From the NCBI GenBank assembly GCA_950097015.1, contig CATNEN010000038.1, positions 26,970,001-27,034,000 of the forward strand: a stretch of 64,000 nucleotides of DNA, given 5' to 3'. This DNA comes from Macrostomum hystrix. Lineage: Eukaryota; Animalia; Platyhelminthes. Positions 1 to 59,875 of the stretch are shown here, piece by piece; position 1 is the stretch's first letter, and every line of letters begins with the position of its first letter. The notes below the pieces were generated by a model. That model ran no database searches. It saw only the letters and a list, made by a program, of their open reading frames with translations, and was not told where the DNA came from. The position numbers were made by a program, and so were the translations under genes.

Positions 1-348
1 GCTGGGGAACCACAGGGAGTTGTCCAGCGGCAGAATGCCGTTCGAGTTCACCCGTTGCCATCCAGTTCGGTCCTCAACTCTCTCATCAGCCGAATCACTC
101 ACTCCGACCCATAGTTTGCAGCCGCAGCTCGCACTCGAGAAGCTGGAAAGCAGCTTCAGCGAGCTGTACGAGTTGATGAGCTCACCTCCGATCGACTCAC
201 ACTGCCTGTTAGCCGAGCACCAGGTGAAGCTATGCGCCGTGTTGAAATACACGCACCTGCCAGCCTCGAGGTTGAACGGCGTTGGGCACTGAGCCTGCAC
301 TGACAGCAGCTGAATGACTAGAGGCAGAAACACGAAACTTAGCAGCAT
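1..348 (-). CDS. Secreted C-type lectin domain protein, N-terminal part; runs off the window start
   Basis: Manual translation from ATG at 348: MLLSFVFLPLVIQLLSVQAQ (signal-peptide-like), then CPTPFNLEAGRCVYFNTAHSFTWCSANRQCESIGGEL...KLWVGVSD...GWQ...LWFPS. This fits the CTLD pattern CP..F...G.C.YF...TW..A...C...GG.L...WVG..D. Absent from the ORF track because no stop lies in the window. Confidence 0.85.
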   Translation of the reverse strand, partial: MLLSFVFLPLVIQLLSVQAQCPTPFNLEAGRCVYFNTAHSFTWCSANRQCESIGGELINSYSSLKLLSSFSSASCGCKLWVGVSDSADERVEDRTGWQRVNSNGILPLDNSLWFPS

Positions 349-2329
349 TGCAGCTGTGAGACTACCGTATTTGAAGGTTTCTTGAAGCTGAGCTCAAATG
401 AGTCTGCACTCAGCATGCAATGCTTTAATAATACGTGCGATCGGCTGGCTGACTTGACAAGCTGTTTTTCATTGGCTTTTATTGGCTTATAACTGGATTC
501 CATGATTTATGGTCTTGTTGCTGCTTTTTTCTTGTTGCATTTTGCTCCCATATTGCTCCGATATCCAGAATCCATTAGCCTGGGTGGAACTCTGCCGATC
601 CAGCTTTTTGACAATTTTTGGCTAGACTATTTGTTAACGCTTCAGTGAATCCAGGGCTACCGCTGTTACTGGGTCGATACCTTAAGTGACGTTTTGCGTC
701 AAGGTAATTCCACTCTCATTTTTTCTTGCAAAAAATCTAAAGTAAATATTTGCCACCGGCTGTAATATATAGGTCGTATGAATTAAAATAGGAGTAATTG
801 CTGAAACTCTCTGACTTATTAACTCTCATGGGGAGTGTTCGTGAATGACAGCTTCTTGCCTTCGAATGTGGTGGTTGTGTCGAACTCGATTAACTTCAGC
901 CTGTTGCCAAAGTACTGCGCTAAGTTTGGCAAGCGAAACAATGATGGGCGCATGTTCAGGGGCACCCTGAGAGCCATTGCGATCAGCAGCAGCTCCATGT
1001 CTGAGAATGAGATTCGGGACTTCTTCACCTTGGTCGTGTGAATGCCTTCTGATTTTATGTTGCGGTATCGTCGAGAAAATGAAAATTAGTACTCTTTAAG
1101 TACTTTTAAATACTTCAAATCAATTTAAAATGCTTTTCCCAACAAGCTTTTTCAATATGATATTTTGTTTTAATTTTTAATTTTTCAAAATTAATTAAGT
1201 TTTTCTTTTTTTTCTTTCTTTCCTTTTAATTAAGTTTTAATTATTCTTAATTCTCTTTTTTTGGTTTAAGGTCTTATAGTTTTTTTATCTCTAAATATAA
1301 TTTATAGTTTAGTCGAAAATTATACTATATTATGCCGAGAAAATCGGTTTCCTGCTGATTGAAGCGATTGATATCCCATTCCTTTAACAATGTCGAATCA
1401 TTGGCCTTTAAGCCCTGTGCTACAGTTCGCTGGGCCCTACCACCATTAATTGTTTTTGGAGAGGAATATTGATCTTAAATATGAAATCTGAGAATCTATA
1501 CACGAGACTACGGATCGGTTGATTTGCGATGCAGCTTTTTGTATGTCAGCAACTCATTTGGCTATTGACAAAGTTTTATCTATCCAATTTCATTATGTCA
1601 CAACGATGCAAGGCTCGTTCACGCTGAAAATCTGATCTGAAAATGTGGAAATCACTAATGAAAACTAAATTTTCGTTTTTGACTCGAGAAAGGAGTAAAG
1701 AGATTTTGCAAGCGTAAGAGTAACAGCTACGCAATATTTCTGTAGTTATTTTATCTTTCCTTCGTCGTGCACTACCTTGTACTCGTGTTTTTATACTCAA
1801 CTACTAATAGTACTGGCTGTGCATTTTTATAGTTTTTTTTTCTGGATCTTTTCCCCAGAAAACGTATATTGTATCAATATATCAATGTATCAATTCGGAA
1901 CAATATATCGTATATTGATCCGAATGATTAATCATCTTATCAATCTTAGGCTTTTGCGCTTCTTTAGCTCCCCTCCCCCAGTCCATGGACTGTGCAGCTG
2001 TGCACAGCAGCTTTTGTTAGCGCCGCGCAATGGTAGATTGCTATATGCGTAGCATCGGTAAATAATGGCCATAGATTTTGGCATTGTATTTATGACACAA
2101 TGGGGCATTATCATATAGACTATCGTTTTTTAATCCATTTTTTATGAAGCTGTTACTCGTAATTCACGATAAATTGCCAGAGATTATGAGCGAGAAATTC
2201 ACTGTTTTATTAATTTAAGCAACAAGAACTTTAACAGGAAACAGATCTAGGATGTAGCAAAGCAAACGAATACCAAAGTATTTAATTTTTGACAGTGAAG
2301 ACTTATAAGTACGAGCTATATATTCTTTG

Positions 2330-3037
2330 TTAGAAGTTGAACGTGCACCCATCGAAGAGGCAGTTGGCAAACATCGGCTGTTGCACACTTCGCATGTCAA
2401 CTTCAGCTTGCTGCATGACTGTTGCACTAGTGGTTGCACTCGTAGTCGGGTCGGTTGGTGGGGCCAAATTGTCACTAACAGCGGTAGCAACCTTCCTGAG
2501 GGTTCTGTCATGCTTGCGTGCGAGATAACGTCGAACAGTGGACTCCGATCGTTGTCCCGTTACCGCCATTATCTCACCCATAGGCATTCCTTTGTCGAAA
2601 AGATCCGCAATACGCGTGACGCGTACGCAGTGATTCGTGTACTGCTTGGAGAGGTTGCACACACGTGCTTCATGAATGCAGCCAACCAATTGACACCGCG
2701 CACTTGCGTAGCAGAGAAGCGAATTTGTCCTCCCAAATTGTTAGTCAGAGGGCGCGGAAAGAACGAGGACGAATTCTGCGGTAACAAACCCTGATAATGC
2801 AGGATCAACTCCCGCTGAGCGCCGTAGATCCGACTCTGTTTGCGCTGATTTCCTTTGCATTTTGTTGGATCGCTACTCTGGTTTTTTGTCTTTAACGCAA
2901 GATATGAATTCCCATCAGCGTCGACTTCTTCTTGGAGCGTGCCAACTTGCTTAATTGAGTTCTTCGCATGCAGTTCTTCAAGTTCTTAGCTAGCGGGCCA
3001 AAGAGAGAACACAAAAGACCACAGTGGGCCGCATTGA
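2330..3037 (-). pseudogene. Degenerate tyrosine recombinase of Crypton/DUF3504 type (transposon remnant)
   Basis: Two frames join to ...YLALKTKNQ...FFPRPL...RGVNWLAAFMKHVC/CNLSKQYTNHCVRVTRIADLFDKGMPMGEIMAVTGQRSESTVRRY. This matches Crypton-type motifs TKN, NHxxR and IMxxTGH(K/R)SxxSxxxY. In-frame TAA near 2986-2988 and a frameshift near 2660. Confidence 0.8.
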
Positions 3038-3075
3038 CTGTAGAAATATGAGATAGAGGAATAATGATACAGAAT

Positions 3076-6305: not shown

Positions 6306-6391
6306 CCAGTAGAGAAAATAGTTATTAAAGTAAGCGTTTTAGTAGGCCGGTATCAGATGTAGCAGCTTCGCCTCGCTTCACTTGGCCTCCT
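6306..6391 (-). CDS. ANK2: Ankyrin alternative C-terminal/UTR exon (EEAK-stop if entered in phase 1)
   Basis: Acceptor cttcgctttcag|AG GAG GCC AAG TGA; donor TGG|gtaaga at 6305. Confidence 0.55.
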
Positions 6392-6817
6392 CTGAAAGCG
6401 AAGTAAAACAAATGGTTAAAACATACAAAACCTTTTTAAGCATAGCAGAATCGATAGAATAAAAGCAGGTATTGTTAGTACGTTTTGACACTAAATAATA
6501 ACCTTTTCATTAGTAGATAAACTGTGCTAAACGTAAGCGTAAGACATAAATTACCAATTGGTAGAAGCGTTTGTACATTTGTTTACTAAACAATCTGTGA
6601 TTCACCCACAAGCAAGCACAACAGTAAAAAACAGGCCAAATCGACGCAATCAATTGTGCAGTCAAATCAGTTCTTGGTGTGCCAAGTTAATTGTTTGCTA
6701 AATAAAATATACGAACTACAATTAGTTAGATAATACCTATTGAACAGTTTTCTGAGAATTAGTAATATTTAAGACAGGCACCTTGCACTATTACTGTGTC
6801 CCGGGTTACACCTGAAA

Positions 6818-7014
6818 TTAGCGCTTTTTCTTCTGATTGCGTCTCTTCTTCTTTCCGCCTTGCAGCTGCTGCAGCTGCTGCTGTTGCTGCTCTTCATCGG
6901 CTTCCGGCGGCTGATCTACAGCTTCCGCTGCATCGGCGCCGACATTCACTTCGTCTTCCGGAGTGCTAACGGGAGACTGAGCAACCGGTTCCGATTCCGG
7001 TATAACTTCCAGAA
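6818..7014 (-). CDS. ANK2: Ankyrin C-terminal coding exon ([10 protein letters not shown]...QQQQQ...[11 protein letters not shown]-stop)
   Basis: Phase-1 acceptor gaaccag|TT; acidic, then polyQ, then basic tail; TAA at 6818-6820; donor-like CAG|gtgtaa 6 nt after the stop. Confidence 0.75.
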
Positions 7015-10000
7015 CTGGTTCATTTAATTTCAATTAGATTATTTAGTTTTTTTAGGAATTGAAGGACGAATGGAATTTTCTAATTATAGAAAATCAAGGC
7101 AGAAGACATGTCCGCTAAATGCTACTAAATAAGTAACGCTTATGGAAAACTCATTTGAAAATAAAACAATATGCTAGCGTTGCTAAAATAGGAACAGGGT
7201 GATTTAACTACGATTTACAACACCAAAAACAGACGGGCAGCGATACTAAATTTAGTAAGCTAGTGTAGGCAATACAGATGCATAAAACCTTCAATCAGCT
7301 AGCCTCCATTTGCTAATCATACTACTGAGCGGGGCATATTAATGCGCATCCTCATAATTGTCAACTACACAATGTGTTAAGCACAGGAGCAAGCAAAAAT
7401 TGTACTTAACAAAAATGATTTTTAGGATTTTCAAGTTCAACTAATAACTAATACTATTATGACTAGGTCAGACGTGTAGCTATTTTTGTGTACTTTCGTT
7501 CTTTTACCAGACAGACAAAGACAGGCATTCAGACAGACAGAAACAGACAGGCAGTCGGACAGACAGATCTTAACAGACATCACCGCACTCAAGGCTACCT
7601 TCCAGCGCCTTCAAAGCATCGTGAACAGCTTCGTCGACAAGTTGATGGGCGGCAATGCGCAGACTAGCATTATCCGCCTCGCCATTGTCGTTGCCCTCGC
7701 CAATCTCGTCGCTAATCAGGCTGACAACTTCTCGCCTAGTCCTAGTAATAATCCTTCGCTTCACAATGCTACCATCCGGCAGTTCTTCTTCAGTTTCGGC
7801 CACCTCTTCTTCAACACCTTCAGCGTCGTCTTTATCGTCAACAGAGGCTCCACAGCCGCCGATTTCGATAGCCTGAGCTGCGGCGGCCGCATTAATATGC
7901 GGATCGCAGCCCTCAGCAACTATTCTCTCCGTCACCTCCTGTACAAGGCGACGCTTCACAACACGCCGGTGAATAATACCGCCGTCGGGTAGGGCCTCCT
8001 CGAAGTCGGCTACTTCAACGAATTCCTGGGCCGGCTCGGAGCTGACAAGCTCGCGGCGCACAGTCAGGCTGTGGTGGTGAGACTGATGATGACGATGGCT
8101 GTCGCTGGGAGCCGATTCTAAAAAAAGGGAGAATTATTTTTACTTAGATTTTTATAATTTTAGATTTTGGTGAGAATTGCCGGGAACACTATGAGATTGA
8201 TGATTCATAACCGACCAAATAGTTTTATAACTAATATTTCCGGCCTAATACATTAGTTTCAATAGACGAGAATAGGGAACATATTTAACGATAGATCGAG
8301 AGTTCGAATTCGACATTTCGAATTCCTCACGGAAACGAGATATTTAATTTCGGATAAGTTCAGTTCAACCAGGTGTGCATCCTAGGTCGAAGATTCGAAC
8401 TCTCGACCTCTGATTTAGAAGACTTAAGCTTTAATAATTAATTTGAAAACTTTTTTCAACGTTGAAACTGTTGCAATATCTAGCCGATATGTATTGAAAA
8501 ACTTATAACTAAAGTACCATTAAAGTCGGGATTAAATTTCTTGAAAGCCAACTATACAATTCATTTTTCATAGCTTAAAGTGCATAGTTGTGTGGCCGGG
8601 AAAGACTCGCGGTGCGTTTTTAGCGTGTGTGAGAGCTGTTTGAGTCACTTAAAATCATAATAAGCCAGGTGCAAGGAGTACAAGATGTAATTCTTATTTT
8701 TATAAGCTAATAAACATATACGATAGTTAGGAATACGCATTGATTAAAATAAGCCTATGGCAAATGCGCAATCCATATTGTTTATGTAGTATATTATATA
8801 ATCCTAGGGATAACTAACTTTTGGGATAATTTCTTACACAACATACAAGAGCAAACCATCTAAATATTTATTTTTTAGGCTACTAACAGTAATCTATTTT
8901 AGACTCGCGTGTACTATTATTTTCAAGCAAATAAAATAAATAAATAGTATAATACACATTTAAACTACTAATAGTAGCCTAAACAAAGTAAAAACGTTAG
9001 AAATATGAAAGCCTGACCAAAAGAATAAATACTGCCCGCTATTATTTTTCACAAAGGGGACGCAAGGACTTGGCTGAGCCAGATATGACAATAGAACAGC
9101 ACAGTTTCATTTTTACAACAATTAATTGAAACTATCTATTACAGAAGTATTTGGTAACATTCTATTTTTATTCTATCTTCAATTACTAAAAAGTAAACAG
9201 GATTGACATGAAAATTATGTATTTATATTTAGTCCTAGGATTTGTGCAACTAAAAGAACACAAATTGAATTATCATTGTTATCAGTTGAATCTATATTTA
9301 TTAGACTATAATAGAGATTTAACACCGTGTGCCGTCATAGTCACATGTCAATTCTTTGAATGATGATTGACATTCTATTCGACTGACTGACTGTCAGCGG
9401 GCTGAAATCAGTCAGGAGGCAAGGGGGGCCAATGGCATGGTTACGCATAATAAAACAGCATAAATTATGAAAATTGCTAATGTTCTTTCAACAGTAGAAC
9501 TACCAAGGGGGATTCCCCCCCCCCGCCGACAATTATTTGTGCTGCACCCGAACGGAGCAATGAAAGCACACAAAACTCAAGAACATAGGCCAACTTTTTG
9601 TTGCGCATTGACTGTCGAGATATTCAATGAATCTGGCCGAAGGTCGGATTTCATACACCCCTATACACGAATTTGCACTGCGCCTCAGTGCGGCCTTGCC
9701 AGGCCTTCAAAATTTATCAGCATCTCACCCGAATGTGCCTGCATCATCTCCGTCTTCGGTGGTCACCTGCCTTTATCTAGGACGGACTGCTGGACCTTCA
9801 AGGGCTGGAACAGGTGGAACTAGGCTACCATGGACACCCTTGACGCAAATTTCTCCAATTTCACTGATCAAGCCTAAATACGAGGCGCAGTTCAACCACA
9901 GGACACCCTCGTTTAGTCTGTTAATCAATCCGTCACCACTAAACGCTGTTAGCATTCGGGCGCGGCCAAAATATTTCGCCGTTCCTAAAAAAACCCCCTT

Positions 10001-13000
10001 TGGTATAAAAATAGCTTGGTAGTCCTACTGTTAATGATGCATTTTGTGATCTAAGAGGGAATAATAATTTAATAAAAAACTAAGTAAAAATGTAAGTAAA
10101 AATCAATGCAAAACTAATTGATAATTATTCGCGTATTGTTGCTTCATAGTGATTTAATTAGATAGGAAGCATATAAAAATAAATAGGAAAGAAACTAGTA
10201 TTGACACAAGCAAGGCAGTGCAGTCAAATTTCTCACCTGTTATTATTGGTCAATTTGTCTCCAGGTCGGTCTTAGTCCAGGTCGTTTGTTGCAGAAATTT
10301 CGAGATGCCAGCTTCCAAGAAGACACTTTTTCCCATATCTTCATCGCCTCAAAGATCACACAATCACACACAGACAGACACAGGTGCATTCATTCGATTT
10401 CATTTCAATTCATTATTGTGGCAGATTGCATGCGTTAAGCCCTGACGAAACTTATCTTCGTATTCCTAGTTGATTTAGTTAAAAGCTGGTCCGTTAAAAT
10501 AAAAGTACTTTAGAAAGCAGGCAAGATAGCAAATTAGGAATAAAAAAGTGCAAACGTTAAAATAGTCGCAATATAGCTCGTACATTGCAAGTCGTAATAT
10601 AGGGGTATAGGATTAAAGAAGTGCAAAACTAAAAGTTATTTTTTTAAGAATTTTAAATAATTTTTACAAATATAAAATCTAGTCTTACCCTGTTCGTGAC
10701 TGTCATCTTCAGTATGAGGCTGTTCATCTAAAATGGACAGGTATGGGATATTATAAATACACTGCCAAGATATACAGTTTGAAAACTTCTAGGATTTAAG
10801 AGATTGGCTGACCCAATATGAGGATCTGGGAGATTGGCTGACCCAATATGAGGATCTGGGAGATTGGCTGACCCAATATGAATATCTGGGAGATTGGCTG
10901 ACCCAATATGAGGATCTGGGAGATTGGCTGACCCAATATGAGGATCTGGGAGATTGGCTGACCCAATATGAATATCTGGGAGATTGGCTGACCCAATATG
11001 AGGATCTGGGAGATTGGCTGACCCAATATGAGGATCTGGGAGATTGGCTGACCCAATATGAGGATCTGGGAGATTGGCTGACCCAATATGAGGATCTGGG
11101 AGATTGGCTGACCCAATATGAGGATCTGGGAGATTGGCTGACCCAATATGAGGATCTGGGAGATTGGCTGACCCAACCTGAGGATCTGGGAGATTGGCTG
11201 ACCCAATATGAGGATCTGGGAGATTGGCTGACCCAATATGAATATCTGGGAGATTGGCTGACCCAATATGAGGATCTGGGAGATTGGCTGACCCAATATG
11301 AGGATCTGGGAGATTGGCTGACCCAATATGAGGATCTGGGAGATTGGCTGACCCAATATGAGGATCTGGGAGATTGGCTGACCCAACCTGAGGATCTGGG
11401 AGATTGGCTGACCCAATATGAGGATCTGGGAGATTGGCTGACCCAATATGAATATCTGGGAGATTGGCTGACCCAATATGAGGATCTGGGAGATTGGCTG
11501 ACCCAATATGAGGATCTGGGAGATTGGCTGACCCAATATGAATATCTGGGAGATTGGCTGACCCAATATGAGGATCTGGGAGATTGGCTGACCCAATATG
11601 AGGATCTGGGAGATTGGCTGACCCAATATGAGGATCTGGGAGATTGGCTGACCCAATATGAAGATCTGGGAGATTGGCTGACCCAATATGAGGATCTGCG
11701 AGATTGCCTGACTCAATCTAAGGATCTAGAAGGTTGCCTGACCCAACCTGAGGATCAGGGAGATTAAATGACCCAACCTTGGGATCTGAGACAATGGCTA
11801 ATCTGACTCACCAGCATCATCCTGTTCCTGCTGATAGCGCTGCAAATCGTCCTCTCGCTCCATGACGCCCTCAACAAACTGCCTGGCCTGCTCCTTCAGT
11901 TTGGCCTCCTCGTTCTCGGCTTCGTCAACTTCAACTGGCGTCGGTGGCGGAGTTTCTCGCTTAGCCGTAGTCGAAGGCTCGGCGTGACTGACTGGAGCAG
12001 TCTGTGGCGTGTCCAGCTCTGCTTTTGTTTAGCGAAATAGAATGCGACATTTAGAATATGTACTTTAACACCCAAGCACTTTTAGTAGTTCAAAAGTGAC
12101 AGTTATCGTGCATATTGTTAGGAATTTTTTTAAACTGCAGCGACACAACTTGGGCATGCTCGGTCCTGGGTTATTTCAGTTTAATAAGGTGAAACTAAAT
12201 CTATATTCATTTTCAATAGGCTTCACAGCACATGCTACTGTCGCATCACTGAATATTAAGTAGTTCAGAAGTAAATAAACTGAACTTTTGAAGTGAATTA
12301 AAAAATCCGATTAAGTCGTATGTGATCTAATTGTTTTGGAGTATAACGTCAAAATATTCGGTTATGTGTCACTTCGATGTACAAACGTACACAACTTAAC
12401 AGGTTAACAAACAACAGTGCGAAAACAGGAGATGCCAAATTTAAGCAAGTCGTTACACTAGCGATTGGGTCAGCTCATCTCCCAGATCCTCAAATTGGGT
12501 CAGATATTCTCCCAGATCCTCAGGTTACGTCAGCCATTCTCCCAGATTCTCGGATTGGGTCAGATATTCTCCAAGATTCTCAGGTTGGGTCAGCCATTTT
12601 CCCAGATCCTCAGATTGGGTCAGATATTCTCCCTGATCCTCAGGTTGGGTCAGATATTTTCCCAGATCCTCAGATTGGGTCAGATATTATCCAGATCCTC
12701 AGATTGGGTCAGATATTCTCCCAGATCTTCAGGTTGGGTCAGATATTCTCCCAGATCCTCCGGTTGGGTCAGCCATTTTCCCAGATCCTCAGGTTGGGTC
12801 AGATATTCTCCCAGATCCTCAGATTGGGTCAGATATTCTCCAAGATTCTCAGGTTGGGTCAGATATTCTCCCAGATCCTCAGATTGGGTCAGATATTCTC
12901 CAAGATTCTCAGATTGGGTCAGATATTCTCCCAGATCCTCAGGTTGGGTCAGATATTCTTCAAGATCCTCAGATTGGGTCAGATATTCTCCCAGATCCTC

Positions 13001-16000
13001 AGGTTGGGTCAGATATTCTTCAAGATCCTCAGATTGGGTCAGATATTCTCCAAGATTCTCAGGTGGGGTCAGCCATTCTCCCAGATCCTTAAGTTGGATC
13101 AGTTAATCTTCCAGTTTTTAAAACCAACACTAAATATAGTTGAAAAAAGAGCTGCTTTAAACAAAAGCAGAGTAGCACAACAGTTTGGCCCAGCCAGAGG
13201 AATAAAACAGCAAAACAAGAAAGTGAAAACACGGAAAACAGCAAAACAAATAAGTATTGTTTAGCAGTGCTCAAAGATTAAAAACTAATTAATACGACTC
13301 ACTCTCGCATCAAAGACGAGAAATAGGATAAAAATTATCCACAGGGAAACATGCCGACTACATACAAACCTTCGTCTCCCTCTGGGGCCATAGACATTGC
13401 TGGCAGGGAGTCCAGCTTATCAAGCAGCTCTTCAACTGCTGGATCATCCCGCGGCTGAGGCCGACTAACAGCGGCTATGTCATCCTCCTGCACCGCTTCT
13501 GACGGAGGCGACGATGATAGTTGGATGAGATGGTAAGGTTTCAAGGGAAAATGCAGCACGAATTTGTATATCCCCCAGTTCTTCAGGGGCAAGTAGCTCT
13601 ATATCCTCCAGTTCTTCAGGGGCAAGTAGCTCTATATCCTCCAGTTCTTCAGGGGCAAGTAGCTCTATATCCTCCTGTTCTTCAGGGGCAAGTAGCTCTA
13701 TATCCTCCAGTTCTTCAGGGGCAAGTAGCTCTATATCCTCCAGTTCTTCAGGGGCAAGTAGCTCTATATCCCCCAGTTCTTCAGGGGCAAGTAGCTCTAT
13801 ATCCTCCAGTTCTTCAGGGGCAAGTAGCTCTATATCCTCCAGTTCTTCAGGGGCAAGTAGCTCTATATCCCCCAGTTCTTCAGGGGCAAGTAGCTCTATA
13901 CCCCCCAGTTCTTCAGGGGCAAGTAGCTCTATATCCCCCAGTTCTTCAGGGGCAAGTAGCTCTATATCCCCCAGTTCTTCAGGGGCAAGTAGCTCTATAC
14001 CCCCCAGTTCTTCAGGGGCAAGTAGCTCTATATCCCCCAGTTCTTCAGGGGCAAGTTGCTCTATATCTCCCCCCAGTTCTTCAGGGGCAAGTAGCTCTAT
14101 ATCCCCCAGTTCTTCAGGGGCAAGTTGCTCTATATCCTCCAGTTCTTCAGGGGCAAGTAGCTCTATATCCTCCAGTTCTTCAGGGGCAAGTAGCTCTATA
14201 TCCCCCAGTTCTTCAGGGGCAAGTAGCTCTATATCCCCCAGTTCTTCAGGGGCAAGTTGCTCTATATCCTCCAGTTCTTCAGGGGCAAGTAGCTCTATAT
14301 CCCCCAGTTCTTCAGGGGCAAAGTAGCTCTATATCCTCCAGTTCTTCAGGGGCAAGTAGCTCTATATCCTCCAGTTCTTCAGGGGCAAGTTGCTCTATAT
14401 CTCCCCCCAGTTCTTCAGGGGCAAGTAGCTCTATATCCTCCAGTTCTTCAGGGGCAAGTTGCTCTATATCCTCCAGTTCTTCAGGGGCAAGTAGCTCTAT
14501 ATCCTCCAGTTCTTCAGGGGCAAGTAGCTCTATATCCCCCAGTTCTTCAGGGGCAAGTAGCTCTATATCCTCCAGTTCTTCAGGGGCAAGTAGCTCTATA
14601 TCCTCCAGTTCTTCAGGGGCAAGTAGCTCTATATCCTCCAGTTCTTCAGGGGCAAGTAGCTCTATATCCCCCAGTTCTTCAGGGGCAAGTAGCTCTATAT
14701 CCTCCAGTTCTTCAGGGGCAAGTTGCTCTATATCCCCCAGTTCTTCAGGGGCAAGTAGCTCTATATCCCCCAGTTCTTCAGGGGCAAGTAGCTCTATATC
14801 CCCCAGTTCTTCAGGGGCAAGTAGCTCTATATCCTCCAGTTCTTCAGGGGCAAAGTAGCTCTATATCCTCCAGTTCTTCAGGGGCAAGTAGCTCTGATAA
14901 ATTATTCATTTATTAGGAAGCATTAGAAAGCGTCATTTTCAATAAAAATCAAGAAAACAATAAGAACAATCTAATAGTTGTTCCACGTTAAGGAAAATTT
15001 TCAATAACCCGGAACACTTGATCATGCGATTTCAAATTTTAGGAAAACTATTCTAAACAAGACCTTGGCGACATTTAGGAAGCTGCTGAATAATACCAAC
15101 CTCGGCCATCCAATTCGCTGCCGGGCAGGTGTACCACAGGCTCCGGAGTCAAGGAGTCCATGGAGTCAATTAGGTCTAGGAAGGCTTTAGTTTTGGCCTC
15201 GCTATTCTCGGCCTGTTCAGCTTCTGTCTTAGCCGCCGGAGGCGGCCCGTGTCGTTCGTCGACCGACGGCTTAATCACGTCGTCGTCCTCGTCGTCGGCG
15301 GGTGGCTGGCTGCCGCGGCCGCCGCTTTGGCGCTCCTCGGCTTCCTGACGATCTAGGAGGTCCTTGGCCTGGCGTTTCTCGTCCTCCTCAACTACGTATT
15401 CAACGTTGCGCATGCACTTTTTAACAACGTCGTCCCGACCGATGCGACGCAGAGCGCGCTCCATCTCGTTGCCCGTGGCATCGTTGGCACGCTCGCGCTG
15501 CCACTGGCAGAGGACGGCGAAGGCGCGATCGCGATCGTCGCGGAAGTTCACCTGGATACGCACAAGTTTGTGTACGTGTAAGTTAAGATGGGATTAAAAA
15601 AGCGGTAAATTGGGAAATGGAAAACTGGAGAAATATAAAAATTACCCTTTGGGATTATTAAAACAATGGAACACTTAAGGAACGGGGTGAGTTTTGCAAT
15701 TAATGGGAGAATATTGGAAATGTGAGAATTGGAAAAAAATGAGGATTTGGAAACTGGAGATTATAGGAAATTATAGAGTTAGTAAACGGGAGAATCAGGA
15801 AACAGGAGATTAAAGGAAATGTGAGAATTGGTAAATGGGAGATTATATGAAATGTGAGAATTGTGAAACGGGGAGAATTGGGAAATGGGAGATTATAGGA
15901 AATGCGTGAATTGGGAAACGGGGAGAATTGGGAAATGGGAGATTATAGGAAATGTGTGAATTGGGAAACGGGAAACTAAATGAATTATGTGAATTGGAAA

Positions 16001-19000
16001 AGGGTAGATTATAGGAAATGTGTGAATCGGAAAATTGTGGAAATGGGAAAATAGGGAAAATGGTCAGGATAAATTAGAGATTTAGGAGATAAAAAAATTG
16101 TAAAGATTTTGGTCGGGAATTAGGCAATGGTAGGGTGCAGGATTAAGGATTACAGATCAGGGAATTAGCGAACACACGGCCCACCTTGGCGTTGGTGATG
16201 TCGGACTGTCCGACGCCCAGCTCCCTAGCCAGCATCGGCCAATCGGAGCGCACGCAGTCGGCCAGATCGCGCAGGTCCAGCTCGGATCTGGCGATGCGGT
16301 CCGTGGTGAAGCTGAGCAGCTCGGGCTGCAGCTCATCGGCGGGACTCTTGGCCGGCCGGAGGGCCGAACCGTCCGGGCTGCAGTCGGGCAGCTGGATCTC
16401 CAGGGTGCAGATTGGCTTCAGCGTCGGACTATCGGTTGGCTTCAGCGGGCGAGGATCGTTCAGGAAGGCGATCTTGCCGACCGCCGGCTCATTGGGATCC
16501 TTGATCTGGAAGGATTGAGGAGTTCAGCGATTGCTTGAGCTTGATTTCAGTAGGGGTGAGATTCGACGAGATTTGGGTGAGATTCTACGAGATCTGTGTG
16601 AGATTCGATGAGATTTGGGTGAGATTCGACGAGATTTGGGTGAGATTCGACGAGATGTTGGTGAGATTCGACGAAGTCTTGGTGAGATTCGACGACTGAC
16701 GAGGTTTTGGTGAGACTCGATGAGGTCTGTGTGAGATTCGACGAGATTTGGGTGAGATTCGACGAGATGTTGGTGAGATTCGACGAAGTCTTGGTGAGAT
16801 TCGACGACTGACGAGGTTTTGGTGAGACTCGACGAGGTCTGGATGAGATTCGACGAGATTTAGATGAGATTCGACGAGATTATGGTGAGATTCGACGAGG
16901 TCTGGATGAGATTCGACGAGATTTGGGTGAGATTCGACGAGATGTGTGAGATTGGACGTGATTTGGTTGAGATTTGATGAGATTAGGGTGAGATTTGACG
17001 AGATTAGGGTGAGATTCGATGAGTACTGTGTGAGATTCGACGAGATTATGGTGAGATTCGACGAGGTCTGGATGAGATTCGACGAGATTTGGGTGAGATT
17101 CGACGAGATGTGTGAGATTGGACGTGATTTGGGTGAGATTTGATGAGATTAGGGTGAGATTTGACGAGATTAGGGTGAGATTCGATGAGTACTGTGTGAG
17201 ATTCGACGAGATTTTGGTGTGATTCGACGAGGTCGGATCTCTAGACTCACCTTGACTGGGAAGGCCAGTCGGTTCTCGCGGAAGGCGCGGAATGGCAGGA
17301 AGAGCTGGTCGCCATTCTTACTAGCCGGGGTCAAATTGCCGACGCCTTCGATCCACTGCGGCTTGCCGTCCAGCACTTCAACTTCGCGCGATTCAGCCTT
17401 GCGCTCGAAGCCTTCATTGCACTCAAGAGTCTTGTCCACCTGACAGGGGAGAAGACAGTCGTTTTTATTACTTTATGTATAAAAAACCACCATGAATCCT
17501 ATCTGATTCAATATCTTATCTGGCTTTAAATCCCACTTGAGTAACTAGAAAGCCCGTTTGAGTAGCTAAAAATCCCACTTGAGTGGCTAAAAATCCCACT
17601 TGAGTAGCTAAAAATCCCATTTGAGTAGCTAAAAATCCCATTTGAGTAGCTAAAAATCCCATTTGAGTAGCTAAAAATCCCATTTGAGTAGCTAAAAATC
17701 CTATTAGAGAAGCTGAAAATGCCATTTGAGTAGCTAAAAATCCCATCTGAGTATCTAAAAATCCCATCTGAGTAGCTAAAAATCCCACTTGAGTGGCTAA
17801 AAATCACATTTGAGTAGCTAAAAATCCTATTAGAGAAGCTGAAAATGCCATTTGAGTAGCTAAAAATCCCATCTGAGTATCTAAAAATCCAATTTGAGTA
17901 GCTAAAAGGCTCATCTGAGTAGCTAAAAATCCAATCTGAGTATCTAAAAATCCCATTTGAGTAGCTAAAAATCCCATTTGAGTAGCTAAAAATCTCAATT
18001 AAGTAGCTAACTGCCCGACTCGGTTTAAAATGCTATCCAATCTCACAAAAAGTTCCCAATTGACTAGATCCTAACACGTGTCTGATTATCAGATCTAATT
18101 AATAAATATCCCATGAGACCTGGTTAAAAATCTTAAAATCTGGTTAACTATCACACCTTGTCATCCGTGATGCAGAAGCATCGCAATTTGGCCTCCTCCT
18201 GCTCGTTGCGTTTAGCAAAGATGACAAAACGGCCCATATAAGGCACTAGGAAGGCCTCGCGGTAGAGTCTGCCGGCCATGTCAGCAGATTCCGTGGTGTT
18301 GGGACAGTCCATTAGCCAGAATCGGGCGCTCACAGTTGTAGTGAATGAGACGCAGTCCTTCACGTAGGACAGCGGCGTGGAGCCTGTGCAGTGAGGTTAA
18401 CAAAAATAAGTCTACTTAAAACTGTAGTTCAACTACGAGCCTACATTTAAAGCTACTCAAACTGTACACAAACTACGAGCCTACATTTAAAGCTACTCAA
18501 ACTGTACTCAAACTACGAACCTACATTTAAAGCTACTCAAACTGTACACAAACTACGAGCCTACATTTAAAGCTACTCAAACTGTACTCAAACTACGAGC
18601 CTACATTTAAAGCTACTCAAACTGTACTTAAACTATGAGCCATCATTTGAAGCTACTCAAAACCGTACTCAAACTACGAGCCTACATTTAAAGCTACTCA
18701 AACTGTACTTAAACTATGAGCCATCATTTGAAGCTACTCAAAACCGTACTCAAACTACAAGTCTTCATTTCAAGCTACTCAAAACTGTACTCAAACTACG
18801 AGCCTACATTTAAAGCTACTCAAACTGTACTTAAACTATGAGCCTTCATTTCAAGCTAATCAAAACTATACTCAAAGTACGAGCTTTCCATTGCAGCTAC
18901 TCAGAACTGTTCTCAAACTATGAATCTAAATTTGAAGCTACTCAAAACTGAACTCATTTTGTACGAGCCTTCATTTTTAGCTACTCAAAACTGTACTCAA

Positions 19001-22000
19001 ACTACGAGCCTTCATTTGTAGCCACTTTAAACTGTACTCAAACTACGAGCCTTCATTTGTAGCTACTTTAAACTGTACTGAAACTATGAATCTAAATTTG
19101 AAGCTACTCAAAACTGTACTCATTTTGTACGAGCCTTCATTTTTAGCTACTCAAAACTGCACTCAAACTACGAGCCTTCATTTGTAGCTACTCAAAACTG
19201 TACTCAAACTACGAGCCTTCATTTGTAGCTACTTTAAACTGTACTGAAAGTACGAGCTTTCCCTTGTAGCTACTCAGAACTGTGCTCAAACTACAAGCCA
19301 ACATTGGCACACAAGTTTTGCTCAACTATACTAGCCACATCCCTAAACTGTACTTTTTCTATTATGAAAGCATGGATATCCATTAAGCAGCTTACCTGTG
19401 ATATCCTCCCAGGTAGCGGGCTGCACACCGCCGGTGATGCTGCACAGCAGGCGCAGGGTGGGGCTCTCGCCGGGATTAGTGATACCCCTAGTTGCCGGCT
19501 TAGGCAGGGGAATAGTCAGAGTTATCGGCTTGTGAAATTTGCGCCTACGCGGCTCGATGGTGACAACGGGCGAGACGGCGACGCGGTTGCCTAGCAACCG
19601 GCCAACCTGCTCGCTGGCAACTGGCAGGGCCTGAATGCCGACGCGAATCTTTTTGGTTAGGGCGCCCTCAGGGAACACCGCTTGCACCTGAGGCGGAATT
19701 AAATAATGAGCACATTTTTTTAATTCGAAACATTTGCTTGTAGCTCGTAGTAAAGTATGTAAAAGTATAATAAATTATATAATTTATAGTTTGAAAATAA
19801 AATACATACGATCTAGCAGCCTAGCCTCTAGATTAAGTCCCAGTATCTCTAGACATAAGTCATGCTATATACAAACTCTCAGATATGAAGCTGGCTATCT
19901 TGCGCATTATTTTTTTGAACTCCAGCAACTGCAGAATATATGAAGATACTGCCACAGTATCCCTAGATCTAGTCCTGTTTGTATCTATGGATCTATAGAT
20001 CTACACATATCTGTAGATATTGCCTAGAGTGCATCCATAGATCGAGTTCTATCAGTATCCCTACATCTAGTCCTGTCTTTATCTATAGATCTAGCCCTGT
20101 CTTTATCCATAGATCTAGCCCTGTCTTTATCCATAGATCTAGCCCTGTTTATCAATAGATCTAGCCCTGTCTTTATCCATAGATCTAGCCCTGTCTTTAT
20201 CTATAGATCTAGCCCTGTCTTTATCCATAGATCTAGCCATGTCTTTATCCATAGATCTAGCCCTGTTTATCAATAGATCTAGCCCTGTCTTTATCCATAG
20301 ATCTAGCCCTGTCTTTATCCATAGATCTAGCCCTGTCTTTATCCATAGATCTAGCCCTGTCTTTATCCATAGATCTAGCCCTGTCTTTATCCATAGATCT
20401 AGCCCTGTTTATCAATAGATCTAGCCCTGTCTTTATCCATAGATCTAGCCCTGTCTTTATCCATAGATCTAGCCCTGTCTTTATCCATAGATCTAGCCCT
20501 GTCTTTATCCATAGATCTAGCCCTGTTTATCCATAGATCTAGCCCTGTCTTTATCCATAGATCTAGCCCTGTTTATCCATAGATCTAGCCCTGTTTATCA
20601 ATAGATCTAGCCCTGTCTTTATCCATAGATCTAGCCCTGTCTTTATCCATAGATCTAGCCCTGTCTTTATCCATAGATCTAGTACTGTCTGTATCTATAG
20701 ATCTAGTACTGTCTGTATCTATAGATCTAGTACTGTCTGTATCTATAGATCTAGTCCTGTCTGTATCTGTAGATCTAGTCCTGTCTGTATCTGTAGATCT
20801 AGTCCTGTCTGTATCTGTAGATCTTGTCCTGTCTGTTTCCATAGATATAGTCCTGAAAGTATCTGTAGATCTAGTCCTGTCTGTATTTATAGATCTAGTC
20901 CTGTCTGTATCTGTAGATCTAGTCCTGTCTGTATCTGTAGATCTAGTCCTGTCTGTTTCCATAGATATAGTCCTGAAAGTATCTGTAGATCTAGTCCTGT
21001 CTGTATCTATAGATCCAGTCCTGTCTGTATCTGTAGATCTAGTCCTGTCTGTATCCGCTAGTATCTTCGGATTCCTAGACATCTGTAATTCTTCGCTAGC
21101 CTTCCTATTGCGTCAATGTTTACTAGCGAATCGCGTACCTGGCCAATCACAGTGGACGAGATGACGCCACCCTCCGGACCAATCAGAGCGCTCTCCTGTC
21201 GCACCCTGGTCACCAGGGCGAAATACTGCGGAAAGCTGTTAGTTAAGATGCGCACAATGCGCTTCTTACGCAGATCGTCATTGGTTGGCATGGAGCCGAA
21301 TACTCCACCGACGGCGTCAATAACCGACTGTTCGGTGACTTCAACGGTGTGCTCCTTCCAGGTCTCGCCGTTGTCGGATCGCAGTACAACAATTTCACGT
21401 TCGCGATCGCGCAGAGAAGCGAAATGCGGCACCTCGAGGAGGACGTTGCTATTGAAATTGGCGTTGCTAGGGCCCATCTCAATGATTCGACAGGCGAGGC
21501 CTTCGCCATCGTTGAACTGCGGCGGCCTGGTGACTCGACCTTGACGCATCAGGCGGCAGGTGATGCGAGTGGGAGCGCTGGCAGCGTTGGGCGGGATCAC
21601 AATGCGGAGGCCGGGAAACCGGCTGCCGTTCATGGCGCCGCCACGAGCGTCAACGAGGAATGAGACCAGGAATCTGCGGGTGGGGAGTTTTTGGGATATT
21701 TTTGTACCGAGGAGGACGTTGCTATTGAAATTGGCGCTGCTCGGGCCCAATTAAATGGAAACATTTAGTTGGGGGATGAGCTGTCATAGAGAAGAAGTAA
21801 GGAAATCAAGCTGTCATATATGAGAAGGGAAACGAGCTGTCATATGAGCAGGGAAACGAGCTGTCATATGAGCAGGGAAATGAGCTGTCATTTGAGCAGG
21901 GAAACGAGCTGTCATATGAGCAGGGAAACGAGCTGTCATATGAGCAGGGAAATGAGCTGTCATTTGAGCAGGGAAACGAGCTGTCATATGAGCAGGGAAA

Positions 22001-25000
22001 CGAGCTGTCATATGAGCAGGGAAACGAGCTGTCATATGAGCAGGGAAACGAGCTGTCATATATGATGAGTAGGGAAATGAGCTGACATATATGATGAGTA
22101 GGGAAACGAGCTGTCATATGAGCAGGGAAATGATGTCTAGATCTAGTGAAGATTACAACATTATGAAGTGAACAAGTTAGTATTTAAGCATTTATAGTCT
22201 GTGAAAACCGTGGTTGTACTTTTGTTTTCTAAGAAACGCGGCAAGATTTTGTTAAAACATAATTCGCAGCTTTACATTAAAGCTTCAATACAACAAACAT
22301 ACTTTTTTATAAATAAATACGTAGTCAGCTACTTTAAGTGGCTGGATTGACTAAAAGGCTGTTATTAAACTTTTTACCTTAATTAGCTTAGAAAATACAC
22401 TTTCGTTGGCTATAGGGCCATTTTAGTGTGTATCAGTTGAAGTTTTTCAGCCTGGTTAGCCTAACTAGCTACACAGACACTTGTTATGCTAATAACTACA
22501 TTTATATGTACGCATATAATCTATGTTTGTGTTTGCATAGTCAATACCTGTGTAGGTATTGGCGTGTTCTGGCTATTGGCATGCACATGTGTAATACAGA
22601 AATACTTTCTACCAGCTAATTTCACAGATCGAAATCTTCTTCAGATCAACATACTCACTTCTAGGGCTGTGTACAATTTTTCAGTCCGTAGACTTAGTCT
22701 AATTTCTGCCTAATGGTCACAAATTGTTTCCTACTGGTCAGAAGTCCACAGCTCTACTAAATAGGCGTAAATAAAAAATAATATTAGCATGAGGGCTGTA
22801 TATTGGAATTAAATAGATTCTGGCTATTCCACTGACTCCACAAGAGTATTCCACAACCCCTCCTGAGAGGTTGTAGCCTAGTGGTTAGGGCGTCGGACTC
22901 ACGACTTGAAGTTCGGGGGATCGATTCCCGACTCACTGGAACAATTTATGTCCTTAAGCTAGATACTTAACTCTGCATTGCTTCAGTTCACCCAGCTGAT
23001 AAATGGGTACCAGCATCAGCTGGGATAATTGAAGGTGGGTGTGGCGTCCCCCCAGTCCATGGACTGAACAGCCGTACGCAGCCTTCAGATGCGCCGCGCA
23101 TTAGCTGCGGCTGTGCTATCGGCTGCACATCTGACCCAATTGGGGCAGGTGTGATCAATTAAAATTGAGCACACATTTAGACAGGCGTGTACATCTGCTC
23201 TGTATTTCTCATCGTCAGGCAGTGTACACTCTCACTGTGCCTTGGAGGTTGGTCCTCAAGGGCGTAAATTGCACGACAAGCCACCAAGCCTTCTCTCCGC
23301 GGCTGCGCCCCAAATAAATGCGGCCTCACCGCGGAATCGAGCTCAGGGACCTTGGTGGGAGAGGCAAACGGGTTGCTGTCATTCACCCATAAACATTACA
23401 GAATATACTAGCATAATAAGAGCTACTCACGTTCCAGTTTCAGGATCGACTATTTTCTTCGTGACAGTCATGATTTTAAACGAAAAGAAAATCTTTAAAG
23501 ACAAATCAATCAATAATTGACTGCTTTAGATCTTGGGGACAAGCTTATTATAAAATAAGAATTTAGCATTAGCTTTCTAGAGTTGAATTATATAGAAACC
23601 AACTGCAACATAAGCCTTGCTTGCACATGTGGACACACAGTTAGTTTGTGCTTGGTGATTTGGACTACCCCTCACACCCCAATGTCCCCCTCTATCCCCT
23701 AACTCTATTTTCTCTGTCTTCTTTCGTTTTTTTTCTATTGCTAAATGGCAATGTACAAAAAGCTATATGGAGTTTGAATGTACACTAATACAAGCTCCCT
23801 AGCTAGGACTGTACAGGCTAGCTAACCAGGACTATAACAAAACACTGTCACCTTTCAATCTTCTCTCTTTCTTTGTCCCCAGACTCCTCCCAGGACCTGG
23901 AAAGGTATTGCGACTCTTTTCCGTGGGAGTCTGGTTAGTTCTGAGCTGTTTTTAGGAAGCATTGTTCTCTTTCTTTTTCCCTCTAGCGGATTGACAATTA
24001 GTATTTTAATATTTTAAACACTCAATAATTAATCAATAAGATACATATTATTAACAAGCTTAATATATAATAGTTATCTCACATTTCTAATCTCTCTCCT
24101 GTCTCATTTCCATCCTCGTCTTAACTCTCTCTCCCTAATTTCATTTCTTCTGTCTTAACTCTCCACTGTCTCTTCTCTCCCTTAGTCTTATATTTCTCAT
24201 CTTTCTCATCTAAATCATGTCTCATTTTCCGTCTCATCTCTCTCCTGTCTTGTCTCTCCCTCGTCTTATATTTCTCCGATAGTCTTATCTCTCCTCTGTC
24301 TCAATTCTCCCATTGCCTTATCTCTCCCCCGTTTCATATTTCTCCCATAGTCTTATCTCTCCTCTGTCTCATTTATCCCATAGTCTTATCTCTCCCTGTC
24401 TTATTTATCCCAGTCTTATCTCTCCCTGTCTCATTTATCCCATAGTCTTATCTCTCCCTGTCTCATTTATCCCATAGTCTTATCTCTCCCTGTCTCATTT
24501 ATCCCATAGTCTTATCTCTTACTGTCTCATTTATCCCATAGTCTTATCTCTCCCTGTCTCATTTATCCCCCACTCTTACCTCTCCCCTGTCTTCCCCCGC
24601 AGTCTAATCTTTCTCCTCTTTTTATCTTTATCATGTCTTTACGCTGTCAAATCTGTCCTCGTTTCCCCTGTCTCATGTGTCATTAGTCTCTAATGACACA
24701 TTTTTGTTAAGTTTGTAAGTTTATTGGTACAGCATGCAACGCACTGTAAAATAACATTACAGTTTTTATATTCCTAAACAGTGGCTAAAATCCATGCCGT
24801 TTTAGTCGGGTCGATTTCTGTTCTGCAGAGCAGGAAATTTATTTCTACCTATTCTATTTCAGTTTTTTGTACCACAGACAGAAGAAACAGTAATAGTACA
24901 CTCCAGTGTGTTTCAGATTTAAGGCATTGCAAAATAAATTGCCTACACATAATATACATATATATAAAGAAAAGATACGTGTGAAAAAAAGCAGAAGACC

Positions 25001-59584: not shown

Positions 59585-59875
59585 AAACATCACTGGCAGG
59601 GCTGACACTGACACCAAGGTCCCAAAGCTCAATTTCATGGAGAGAGAACAATTTAGGCCAACCTAGTCTACAATAGTGAGAGTGTACACTGCCTGATGAT
59701 GAGAAAACAGGGCACATGTACACAGAAAATGTCTGTGTATGGTATTTGTGTGTGTGTGCAAAGGAGTTAGCGAAATGGCCAGAATTACATCCTTGCTAGC
59801 TTCAGGTCTAGTCACTAAATGATGTGTCATTGCCAACAGCCCTGTTGCATTTTTTTAAAAGTTATTATTATGATT
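59585..59875 (+). mobile_element. Degraded SINE family A copy, opposite orientation
   Basis: gtgagagtgtacactgcctgatgatgagaaa...agcgaaatg..cagaatt...cattgccaacagccct followed by a ttattatta tail. Confidence 0.7.

What the first reader, a model, noticed from the sequence alone, without database searches (positions are those of the whole stretch)
10801..13101. A frame-preserving exon caged between two inverted minisatellite arrays: predicted long RNA duplex and candidate circRNA with an endless ORF
Seen: the 30-bp arrays at 10801-11790 and 12464-13101 are reverse complements (cccagatcctca-NN-ttgggtcag core), this family occurs nowhere else in the window, and the only exon I found between them is 11812-12018. 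That exon is 207 nt, phase 1-1, stop-free and has an in-frame ATG, so a back-spliced circle would read without a stop. Known: reverse-complementary intronic matches (inverted Alus, C. elegans RCMs) promote back-splicing, exon skipping and ADAR editing. Inference: locus-specific minisatellites do that job here, and tandem units allow pairing in many registers, so copy number could tune exon inclusion.
Basis: partly seen in the sequence, partly recalled or inferred. Interest (0 to 1): 0.8.

Follow-up and report, generated by a model that had tools for sequence, protein, structure and literature searches.

The report
Mirror-image minisatellites flank included ankyrin exon
Two oppositely oriented arrays of one 30-base repeat sit in the introns on either side of an ankyrin exon in a Macrostomum flatworm and are predicted to zip together in the RNA, but the assembled transcripts show this exon spliced in normally, so the layout is likely a harmless scar of local repeat copying that would at most shed a rare circular RNA.

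Summary
The arrays (10800-11790, 12464-13114) are inverted relatives, 82% alike over 652 nt, found nowhere else in the window. They flank a 207-nt phase 1-1 tail exon of a Macrostomum ankyrin; the transcript is predicted to form about 520 inter-array pairs.

The functional reading is unsupported. All 6 runs laid (of 12 listed; contigs, 3 studies) splice the exon linearly to the next one. The exon that is skipped is the upstream 129-nt exon, outside the cage, and the M. lignano orthologue shows the same pattern (caged exon in 5 of 5 records, 129-nt exon in 4 of 5). The endless ORF is trivial: all 5 frame-symmetric exons among 9 examined give one. All 8 introns examined carry a minisatellite, and a second, older inverted sister pair brackets a 227-nt frame-shifting core exon, which points to mutation rather than selection. 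Contigs cannot exclude a rare circle or editing.

Verdict: likely neutral local seeding of a minisatellite into the neighbouring intron; a known layout built from an unusual repeat. The open lead is that both adjacent sister pairs are inverted.

The parts
10800..11790 (-). 30-bp minisatellite array in the intron downstream of the caged exon (about 33 units, highly homogeneous; the 3 exon-proximal units are degenerate; begins 21 nt from the donor)
12464..13114 (+). inverted sister 30-bp array in the upstream intron (about 21-22 units, more varied; 445 nt from the acceptor)
   Evidence: inner junction bridged by a contig of run X3
11812..12018 (-). 207-nt phase 1-1 coding exon of the ankyrin acidic tail; included in every transcript form seen
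   Evidence: 60-63% identical to the M. lignano orthologue
13370..13498 (-). 129-nt phase 1-1 cassette exon outside the cage; the exon that is alternatively skipped
   Evidence: included in X10 and X11, skipped in X9; M. lignano P0003 lacks it, P0005/P0090/P0091/P0092 have it
10689..10727 (-). 39-nt phase 1-1 exon, the downstream splice partner of the caged exon
15101..15551 (-). death-domain/tail exon (451 nt, phase 0-1); joined directly to the caged exon when the 129-nt exon is skipped
12415..12452 (+). short patch in the upstream intron complementary to the caged exon's 3' end and donor; possible decayed relic of an inverted copy (weak, post hoc; coordinates approximate)
17528..18010 (.). 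21-bp array, one arm of a second, older inverted sister pair
18412..19299 (.). 41-bp array, the other arm of the second pair
18157..18383 (-). 227-nt phase 1-0 core exon caged by the second pair; skipping it would shift the frame

Best explanation
A 30-base minisatellite lies in opposite orientations in the two introns around a 207-base ankyrin exon that the assembled transcripts splice in normally; one array likely arose as a short backwards copy of the other made during local DNA copying or repair, and the predicted RNA duplex is likely a tolerated by-product rather than a selected switch. Steps: (1) shown: common ancestry of the units and inverted layout; (2) shown: each array has its own consensus, which implies separate expansion and homogenisation after seeding (inferred); (3) inferred: seeding by a short-range inverted templated copy; (4) computed: the pre-mRNA can pair over about 520 bp; (5) shown: linear inclusion is the form seen; (6) inferred: linear splicing usually wins, probably because the exon is short and its upstream intron can be committed before the downstream arm is made; any circle or editing would be low-level noise.
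For: Linear junction from the caged exon to the 39-nt exon in 4 of 4 runs and 4 of 4 runs: 6 distinct runs of 12 listed, 3 study codes. The skipped exon is the uncaged 129-nt neighbour, as in M. lignano, where 5 of 5 orthologous records keep the caged exon and 4 of 5 keep the neighbour. 8 of 8 consecutive introns examined carry an array, so arrays are the background here. A second related inverted pair (z 6.9) cages a frame-shifting core exon and has decayed to weak pairing (net -16 versus -389 kcal/mol over 480 nt), as expected if nothing maintains complementarity. Consensus units differ at 5 of 30 sites; mean distance is 2.0 and 3.8 within arrays and 5.8 between. Short local copying occurs in this gene: a 50-bp, 90% direct copy of exon sequence lies about 270 bp away in the adjacent intron. 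Many exons flanked by complementary repeats do not circularise (PMC4617980, passages), and repeat-driven circles are argued to be splicing by-products (PMC8516420, passages).
Against: The predicted duplex is very strong (-924 kcal/mol, against -172 and -245 for self-folding) and has the same identity as the ZKSCAN1 Alu pair over a longer stretch (82% over 287 nt; PMC4201285, passages). In C. elegans, deleting such matches abolished circles at six genes (PMC8330042, passages). Only contigs of unknown library type were laid, and these drop rare forms; 102 loose ends were not shown. With no genome, the family could be dispersed rather than locally seeded. The relic that would mark a local inverted copy is weak (p about 0.005 for a region picked after seeing the fold, 0.047 for the whole exon). 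The M. lignano records are gene models and not all independent.
Confidence: 0.62

Rival explanations
1. The arrays act as a reverse-complementary clamp that yields an appreciable, perhaps neural or regulated, 207-nt circular RNA, possibly translated by rolling circle.
For: 519 predicted inter-array pairs; canonical splice sites; downstream arm 21 nt from the donor; long repeats favour co-transcriptional back-splicing, and (CA)n simple repeats drive the Semaphorin-2b circle (PMC4617980, passages); the circle's coding frame is endless and has an ATG.
Against: All junctions seen are linear. In X3 the exon and the 39-nt exon form one unbranched 248-nt contig, while contigs do break at the alternative upstream junction; X2 and X4 show the same 208-letter run-on. 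This is only a weak hint. The exon is under 300 nt. The endless frame holds for 5 of 5 symmetric exons, 3 of them with an ATG.
Confidence: 0.15
2. The duplex loops the exon out and tunes in-frame skipping, with array copy number acting as a dial.
For: The exon is frame-symmetric; such matches promote skipping in C. elegans (PMC8330042, passages); the fold also buries the donor in a short helix with the upstream intron.
Against: The only listed upstream partner of the 39-nt exon is the caged exon, in 4 of 4 runs; the skipped exon is the uncaged one; all three internal tail exons are phase 1-1; tandem arms pair in many registers, so once both are long, further copies should add little (inference).
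Confidence: 0.08
3. The 30-bp unit is a dispersed genome-wide family, and two copies face each other here by chance.
For: Another family in the window (16-bp based) occurs at 6 places in both orientations; simple and tandem repeats make up 15% of the M. lignano assembly (PMC5730564, passages).
Against: The only two occurrences in 64 kb are in adjacent introns, and the same holds for the second pair.
Confidence: 0.1
4. The arrays are the modular terminal inverted repeats of a foldback-type transposon, or the inversion is an assembly error.
For: Long inverted arms built of about 30-bp units resemble foldback elements (recalled, not tested against a library); no listed contig bridges the left array.
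Against: The 'loop' is an ancestral exon with an orthologue and paralogues in M. lignano; the outer flanks show no homology (p 0.78); the arms have different consensus units and the left one decays into unique donor-side sequence; the right junction is bridged in a run from a separate study.
Confidence: 0.05

Closest known systems
Exonic circRNA loci flanked by inverted Alu pairs (human ZKSCAN1, HIPK3, EPHB4; PMC4201285, passages read)
   Same: Complementary arms of about 82% identity in the two flanking introns, one close to a splice site.
   Different: The arms are tandem minisatellite arrays, not SINEs; the exon is only 207 nt; no circle has been shown here.
Drosophila laccase2 and Semaphorin-2b circRNA loci (PMC4617980, passages read)
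   Same: Semaphorin-2b uses complementary simple tandem repeats, the nearest precedent for tandem repeats as the clamp.
   Different: There the match is under 30 nt of (CA)n and circle production was shown; here the units are 30 bp, the match is about 650 nt, and the exon is below the 300-nt size that circularised efficiently in that study.
C. elegans reverse complementary matches (zip-2, Y20F4.4, arl-13; PMC8330042, passages read)
   Same: Inverted matches in the flanking introns of an invertebrate gene.
   Different: There the circular and skipped forms were detected and depended on the match; here only inclusion was seen and conservation of the arms could not be tested.
Macrostomum lignano ankyrin (PAA92749.1 = P0003; UniRef A0A1I8GR71 = P0005)
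   Same: Orthologue: 96% identical in the ZU5 exon; same tail exon order and the same optional 129-nt exon.
   Different: Tail about 60-80% identical; its intron sequences could not be fetched.

Membership tests
Repeat-driven exonic circRNA locus | Reverse-complementary sequences in both flanking introns that can pair | tested here: met
   82% over 652 nt; 519 predicted pairs
Repeat-driven exonic circRNA locus | Canonical splice sites in use at both exon ends | tested here: met
Repeat-driven exonic circRNA locus | Exon long enough for efficient circularisation (300 nt or more in the laccase2 vector; a tendency, not an absolute rule) | tested here: not met
   207 nt; PMC4617980 passages
Repeat-driven exonic circRNA locus | Back-splice junction observed | tested here: inconclusive
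   No joint listed in 4 runs; contigs only, library type unknown
Repeat-driven exonic circRNA locus | Circle depends on the repeats | not testable with these tools
   needs deletion or a minigene
Structure-driven exon skipping | Isoform that skips the bracketed exon | tested here: inconclusive
   Only inclusion listed in 4 of 4 runs (102 loose ends not shown) and in 5 of 5 M. lignano records
Rolling-circle translated circRNA | Length a multiple of 3, no stop, start codon | tested here: met
   also true of 2 other exons among the 9 examined, so not diagnostic
Rolling-circle translated circRNA | Circle on ribosomes or a junction-spanning peptide | not testable with these tools
   no data
ADAR-edited intronic duplex | A-to-G changes in the paired arms | tested here: inconclusive
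   No other letters listed, but only one unit of each arm was laid, as contigs, with no matched DNA
Foldback-type transposon | Shared terminal sequence at the outer ends of the two arms | tested here: not met
   outer flanks p 0.78
Foldback-type transposon | Target-site duplication and further copies in the genome | not tested
   no genome held; duplication not formally searched

The most novel reading that the evidence does not exclude
In Macrostomum, where most introns of this gene grow their own minisatellite, arrays spread to the next intron preferentially in inverted orientation (2 of 2 related pairs among 7 adjacent intron pairs here). This would keep building and eroding long RNA duplexes around single exons genome-wide: a transposon-free, length-polymorphic source of circRNAs, exon skipping and ADAR substrates.
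Probability: 0.15. Interest if true: 0.62.

Novelty: new variant of a known kind. Interest (0 to 1): 0.24.

Why it matters
As one locus it matters little: an exon stays included despite a very strong predicted clamp, a useful counter-example to reading function from inverted repeats. If the inverted-neighbour pattern holds genome-wide, it would show how intronic minisatellites spread, and it would give a transgenic flatworm model in which duplex length varies naturally and its effect on back-splicing, skipping and editing could be measured.

Tried and rejected
No whole genome is held, so genome-wide copy number and enrichment were not tested. No RNA holder is on record among the 12 runs listed; their RNA nature is inferred from spliced junctions. 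No back-splice joint, no skip of the caged exon and no A-to-G change were listed; with contigs this is not evidence of absence. No run behaving as pure DNA was laid: X2, tagged 'DNA?', showed splice joints, and X1, the possible source, was left out. A protein search with the exon alone found nothing, although orthologues exist, so that search was insensitive. The idea that the unit grew out of the exon's donor site was rejected (p 0.40; another donor scored higher). Flank homology of the second pair: none (p 0.96-0.98). A strict two-unit pattern found 0 matches in metagenome contigs (uninformative for an animal repeat). Rfam gave 0 matches in 7000-24000. Paper searches for Macrostomum + minisatellite + intron and minisatellite + inverted orientation + adjacent introns returned 0 papers; minisatellite + intron + inverted + circular RNA returned 6, of which 5 were listed and none was on this layout by title or abstract start. 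None of the 12 papers listed held 'Platyhelminthes'. The library lacks most subscription papers, and no supplements were opened. Earlier scan notes held nothing for this genome or this repeat.
Full report
Context. The window holds a minus-strand canonical ankyrin gene: ankyrin repeats, ZU5/UPA, death domain and an acidic tail. Its ZU5 exon is 96% identical to Macrostomum lignano ankyrin, against 71-80% for M. lignano paralogues and at most 68% for the other flatworm records listed. The tail is only about 60-80% identical, so the organism is likely a related Macrostomum species. No genome is held. Tandem arrays are everywhere: 84 rows, about 30 distinct arrays, and each of the 8 consecutive introns from 21138 to 10728 carries one. 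In M. lignano simple and tandem repeats make up 15% of the assembly (PMC5730564, passages).

Observation. The two 30-bp arrays are inverted relatives: 82% over 652 nt, z 17.4 at unit level, the best of 870 pair-orientations. All 52 window matches to the core lie in them. The consensus units differ at 5 of 30 positions, with mean distances of 2.0 and 3.8 within arrays and 5.8 between them, which implies separate expansion. The exon 12018-11812 is 207 nt and phase 1-1. Folding the transcript strand of 10689-13498 gives 519 inter-array pairs in helices of at most 24 bp; the duplex is -924 kcal/mol against -172 and -245 for the arms alone. The three degenerate units next to the donor are not part of it. 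One contig of run X3 enters the right array in the assembled orientation; no listed piece bridges the left array.

What the RNA shows. Twelve runs hold the stretch, none on record as RNA; I laid 6 of them, all as contigs. In one search, 4 of 4 runs splice the exon at its predicted ends and continue into the 39-nt exon ending at 10727, with 35 to 255 letters beyond the joint. In one search, the only listed upstream partner of the 39-nt exon is the caged exon, in 4 of 4 runs from 3 study codes; X3 and X10 were laid twice, X2 shares a study code with the possible source run, and 102 loose ends were not shown. Upstream, X10 and X11 join to the 129-nt exon. X9 joins straight to the death-domain exon ending at 15101 (located), skipping the 129-nt exon. 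That joint has only 27 letters on its short side, below the tool's 31-letter bridging rule, and the two X3 contigs that appear to show both forms (depths 51 and 37) are read from lengths and a mixed consensus. The M. lignano records agree: 5 of 5 orthologous proteins keep the caged exon, and 1 of 5 (P0003) lacks the 129-nt exon. So the conserved optional exon lies outside the cage. No back-splice, skip or editing was listed, but contigs drop rare forms and the library types are unknown, so this is not proof of absence.

The endless ORF. Among 9 exons with a verified continuous frame, 5 are frame-symmetric; all 5 give a stop-free coding frame as circles, and 3 of them contain an ATG. All three internal tail exons are phase 1-1. 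The property follows from being a symmetric coding exon and carries no information about the arrays.

A second pair. The arrays at 17528-18010 (21 bp) and 18412-19299 (41 bp) share an 11-base core and are inverted relatives (z 6.9; about 57% over 395 columns). They bracket a 227-nt phase 1-0 core exon whose loss would shift the frame. Their net pairing is weak (-16 against -389 kcal/mol over 480 nt). Of 7 adjacent intron pairs, 2 hold related arrays and both are inverted. This is a small sample: elsewhere among the 29 neighbouring array pairs there are two direct related pairs, one contiguous (43633/43731) and one of the dispersed 16-bp family (48580/50479), and some non-neighbouring pairs reach z 5-6. 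The second pair suggests a repeated mutational route that ignores exon phase and then decays.

Origin. Short local copying is seen in this gene: 50 bp of the ZU5 exon is copied directly into the adjacent intron at 90% identity. A patch at about 12415-12452 is complementary to the caged exon's 3' end and donor (-33.4 against -23.2 +/- 2.6 kcal/mol in shuffles, p about 0.005; six other exons gave 0.11-0.85). I chose that region after seeing the fold, and an unanchored test gives p 0.047, so it is a hint only. Seeding of the unit from the donor motif was rejected (p 0.40). The outer flanks are unrelated (p 0.78) and the loop is an ancestral exon, which argues against a foldback element. A template-switch or repair mechanism is inferred from general knowledge, not shown.

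Comparison. The layout matches known repeat-flanked circRNA loci: inverted Alu pairs (PMC4201285, passages), Drosophila laccase2 and the (CA)n-driven Semaphorin-2b circle (PMC4617980, passages) and C. elegans matches that promote both circles and skipping (PMC8330042, passages). The same Drosophila paper reports that only inserts of 300 nt or more circularised efficiently in its vector and that many repeat-flanked exons do not circularise. PMC8516420 (passages) argues that many such circles are by-products of splicing. Planarian ADARs are described (PMC8797187, search listing only); I did not test for ADAR in Macrostomum. It could work like such a locus, but membership is not shown. Two searches for minisatellite-built cases returned no papers, within the limits of the library. 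Earlier AI notes on similar layouts in other genomes reached similar verdicts; they are unchecked and not independent support.

Verdict. A real and striking layout, likely a neutral product of local inverted seeding (0.62). A regulated circle (0.15), tuned skipping (0.08), chance pairing of a dispersed family (0.10) and a transposon or assembly error (0.05) are less likely. Interest 0.24. The lead worth following is the genome-wide count of inverted sister arrays in adjacent introns.

Noticed in passing
window 17528-19299: Second, older inverted sister pair (21-bp and 41-bp units sharing an 11-base core) around a 227-nt asymmetric core exon.
   Followed up: yes
window 13370-13498: 129-nt cassette exon skipped in run X9 and in one M. 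lignano record: conserved alternative splicing of the ankyrin tail.
   Followed up: yes
window 6391-10727: Several alternative 3' ends after the 39-nt exon: to about 6391 with an early stop (X10), read-through to 10237 then splicing to 8117 (X2, X3, X4), and a further terminal exon near 7009-6820 that matches the M. lignano C-terminus.
   Followed up: partly
window 21708-21757 vs 21435-21484: 50-bp, 90% direct copy of ZU5 exon sequence in the upstream intron, just before the acceptor.
   Followed up: partly
window 3088, 24230, 30220, 48580, 50479, 58131: A dispersed purine-rich 16-bp-based minisatellite family in both orientations; inverted pairs within the gene bracket multi-exon blocks, e.g. 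24230/30220.
   Followed up: partly
window about 9490-10010: High-copy dispersed repeat with very high contig depth in runs X2, X3 and X4.
   Followed up: no
window 22900-23375, 38750-38865, 40100-40430, 45700-45870, 47080-47190, 59675-59870: Copies of a short interspersed, possibly SINE-like element in both orientations; class not tested.
   Followed up: no
window about 2330-3040 (minus): Open stretch after the 63-bp array that looks by eye like the C-terminal part of a tyrosine-recombinase (Crypton-like) gene; label recalled, not tested.
   Followed up: no
window 1-390 (minus): Start of an ORF with a hydrophobic leader and C-type-lectin-like cysteines; label by eye, not tested.
   Followed up: no
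window 23430-23900 (minus): Small candidate exons upstream of the ZU5 exon that could be micro-exons or an internal start; M. lignano P0005 (923 aa) begins near the ZU5 region.
   Followed up: no
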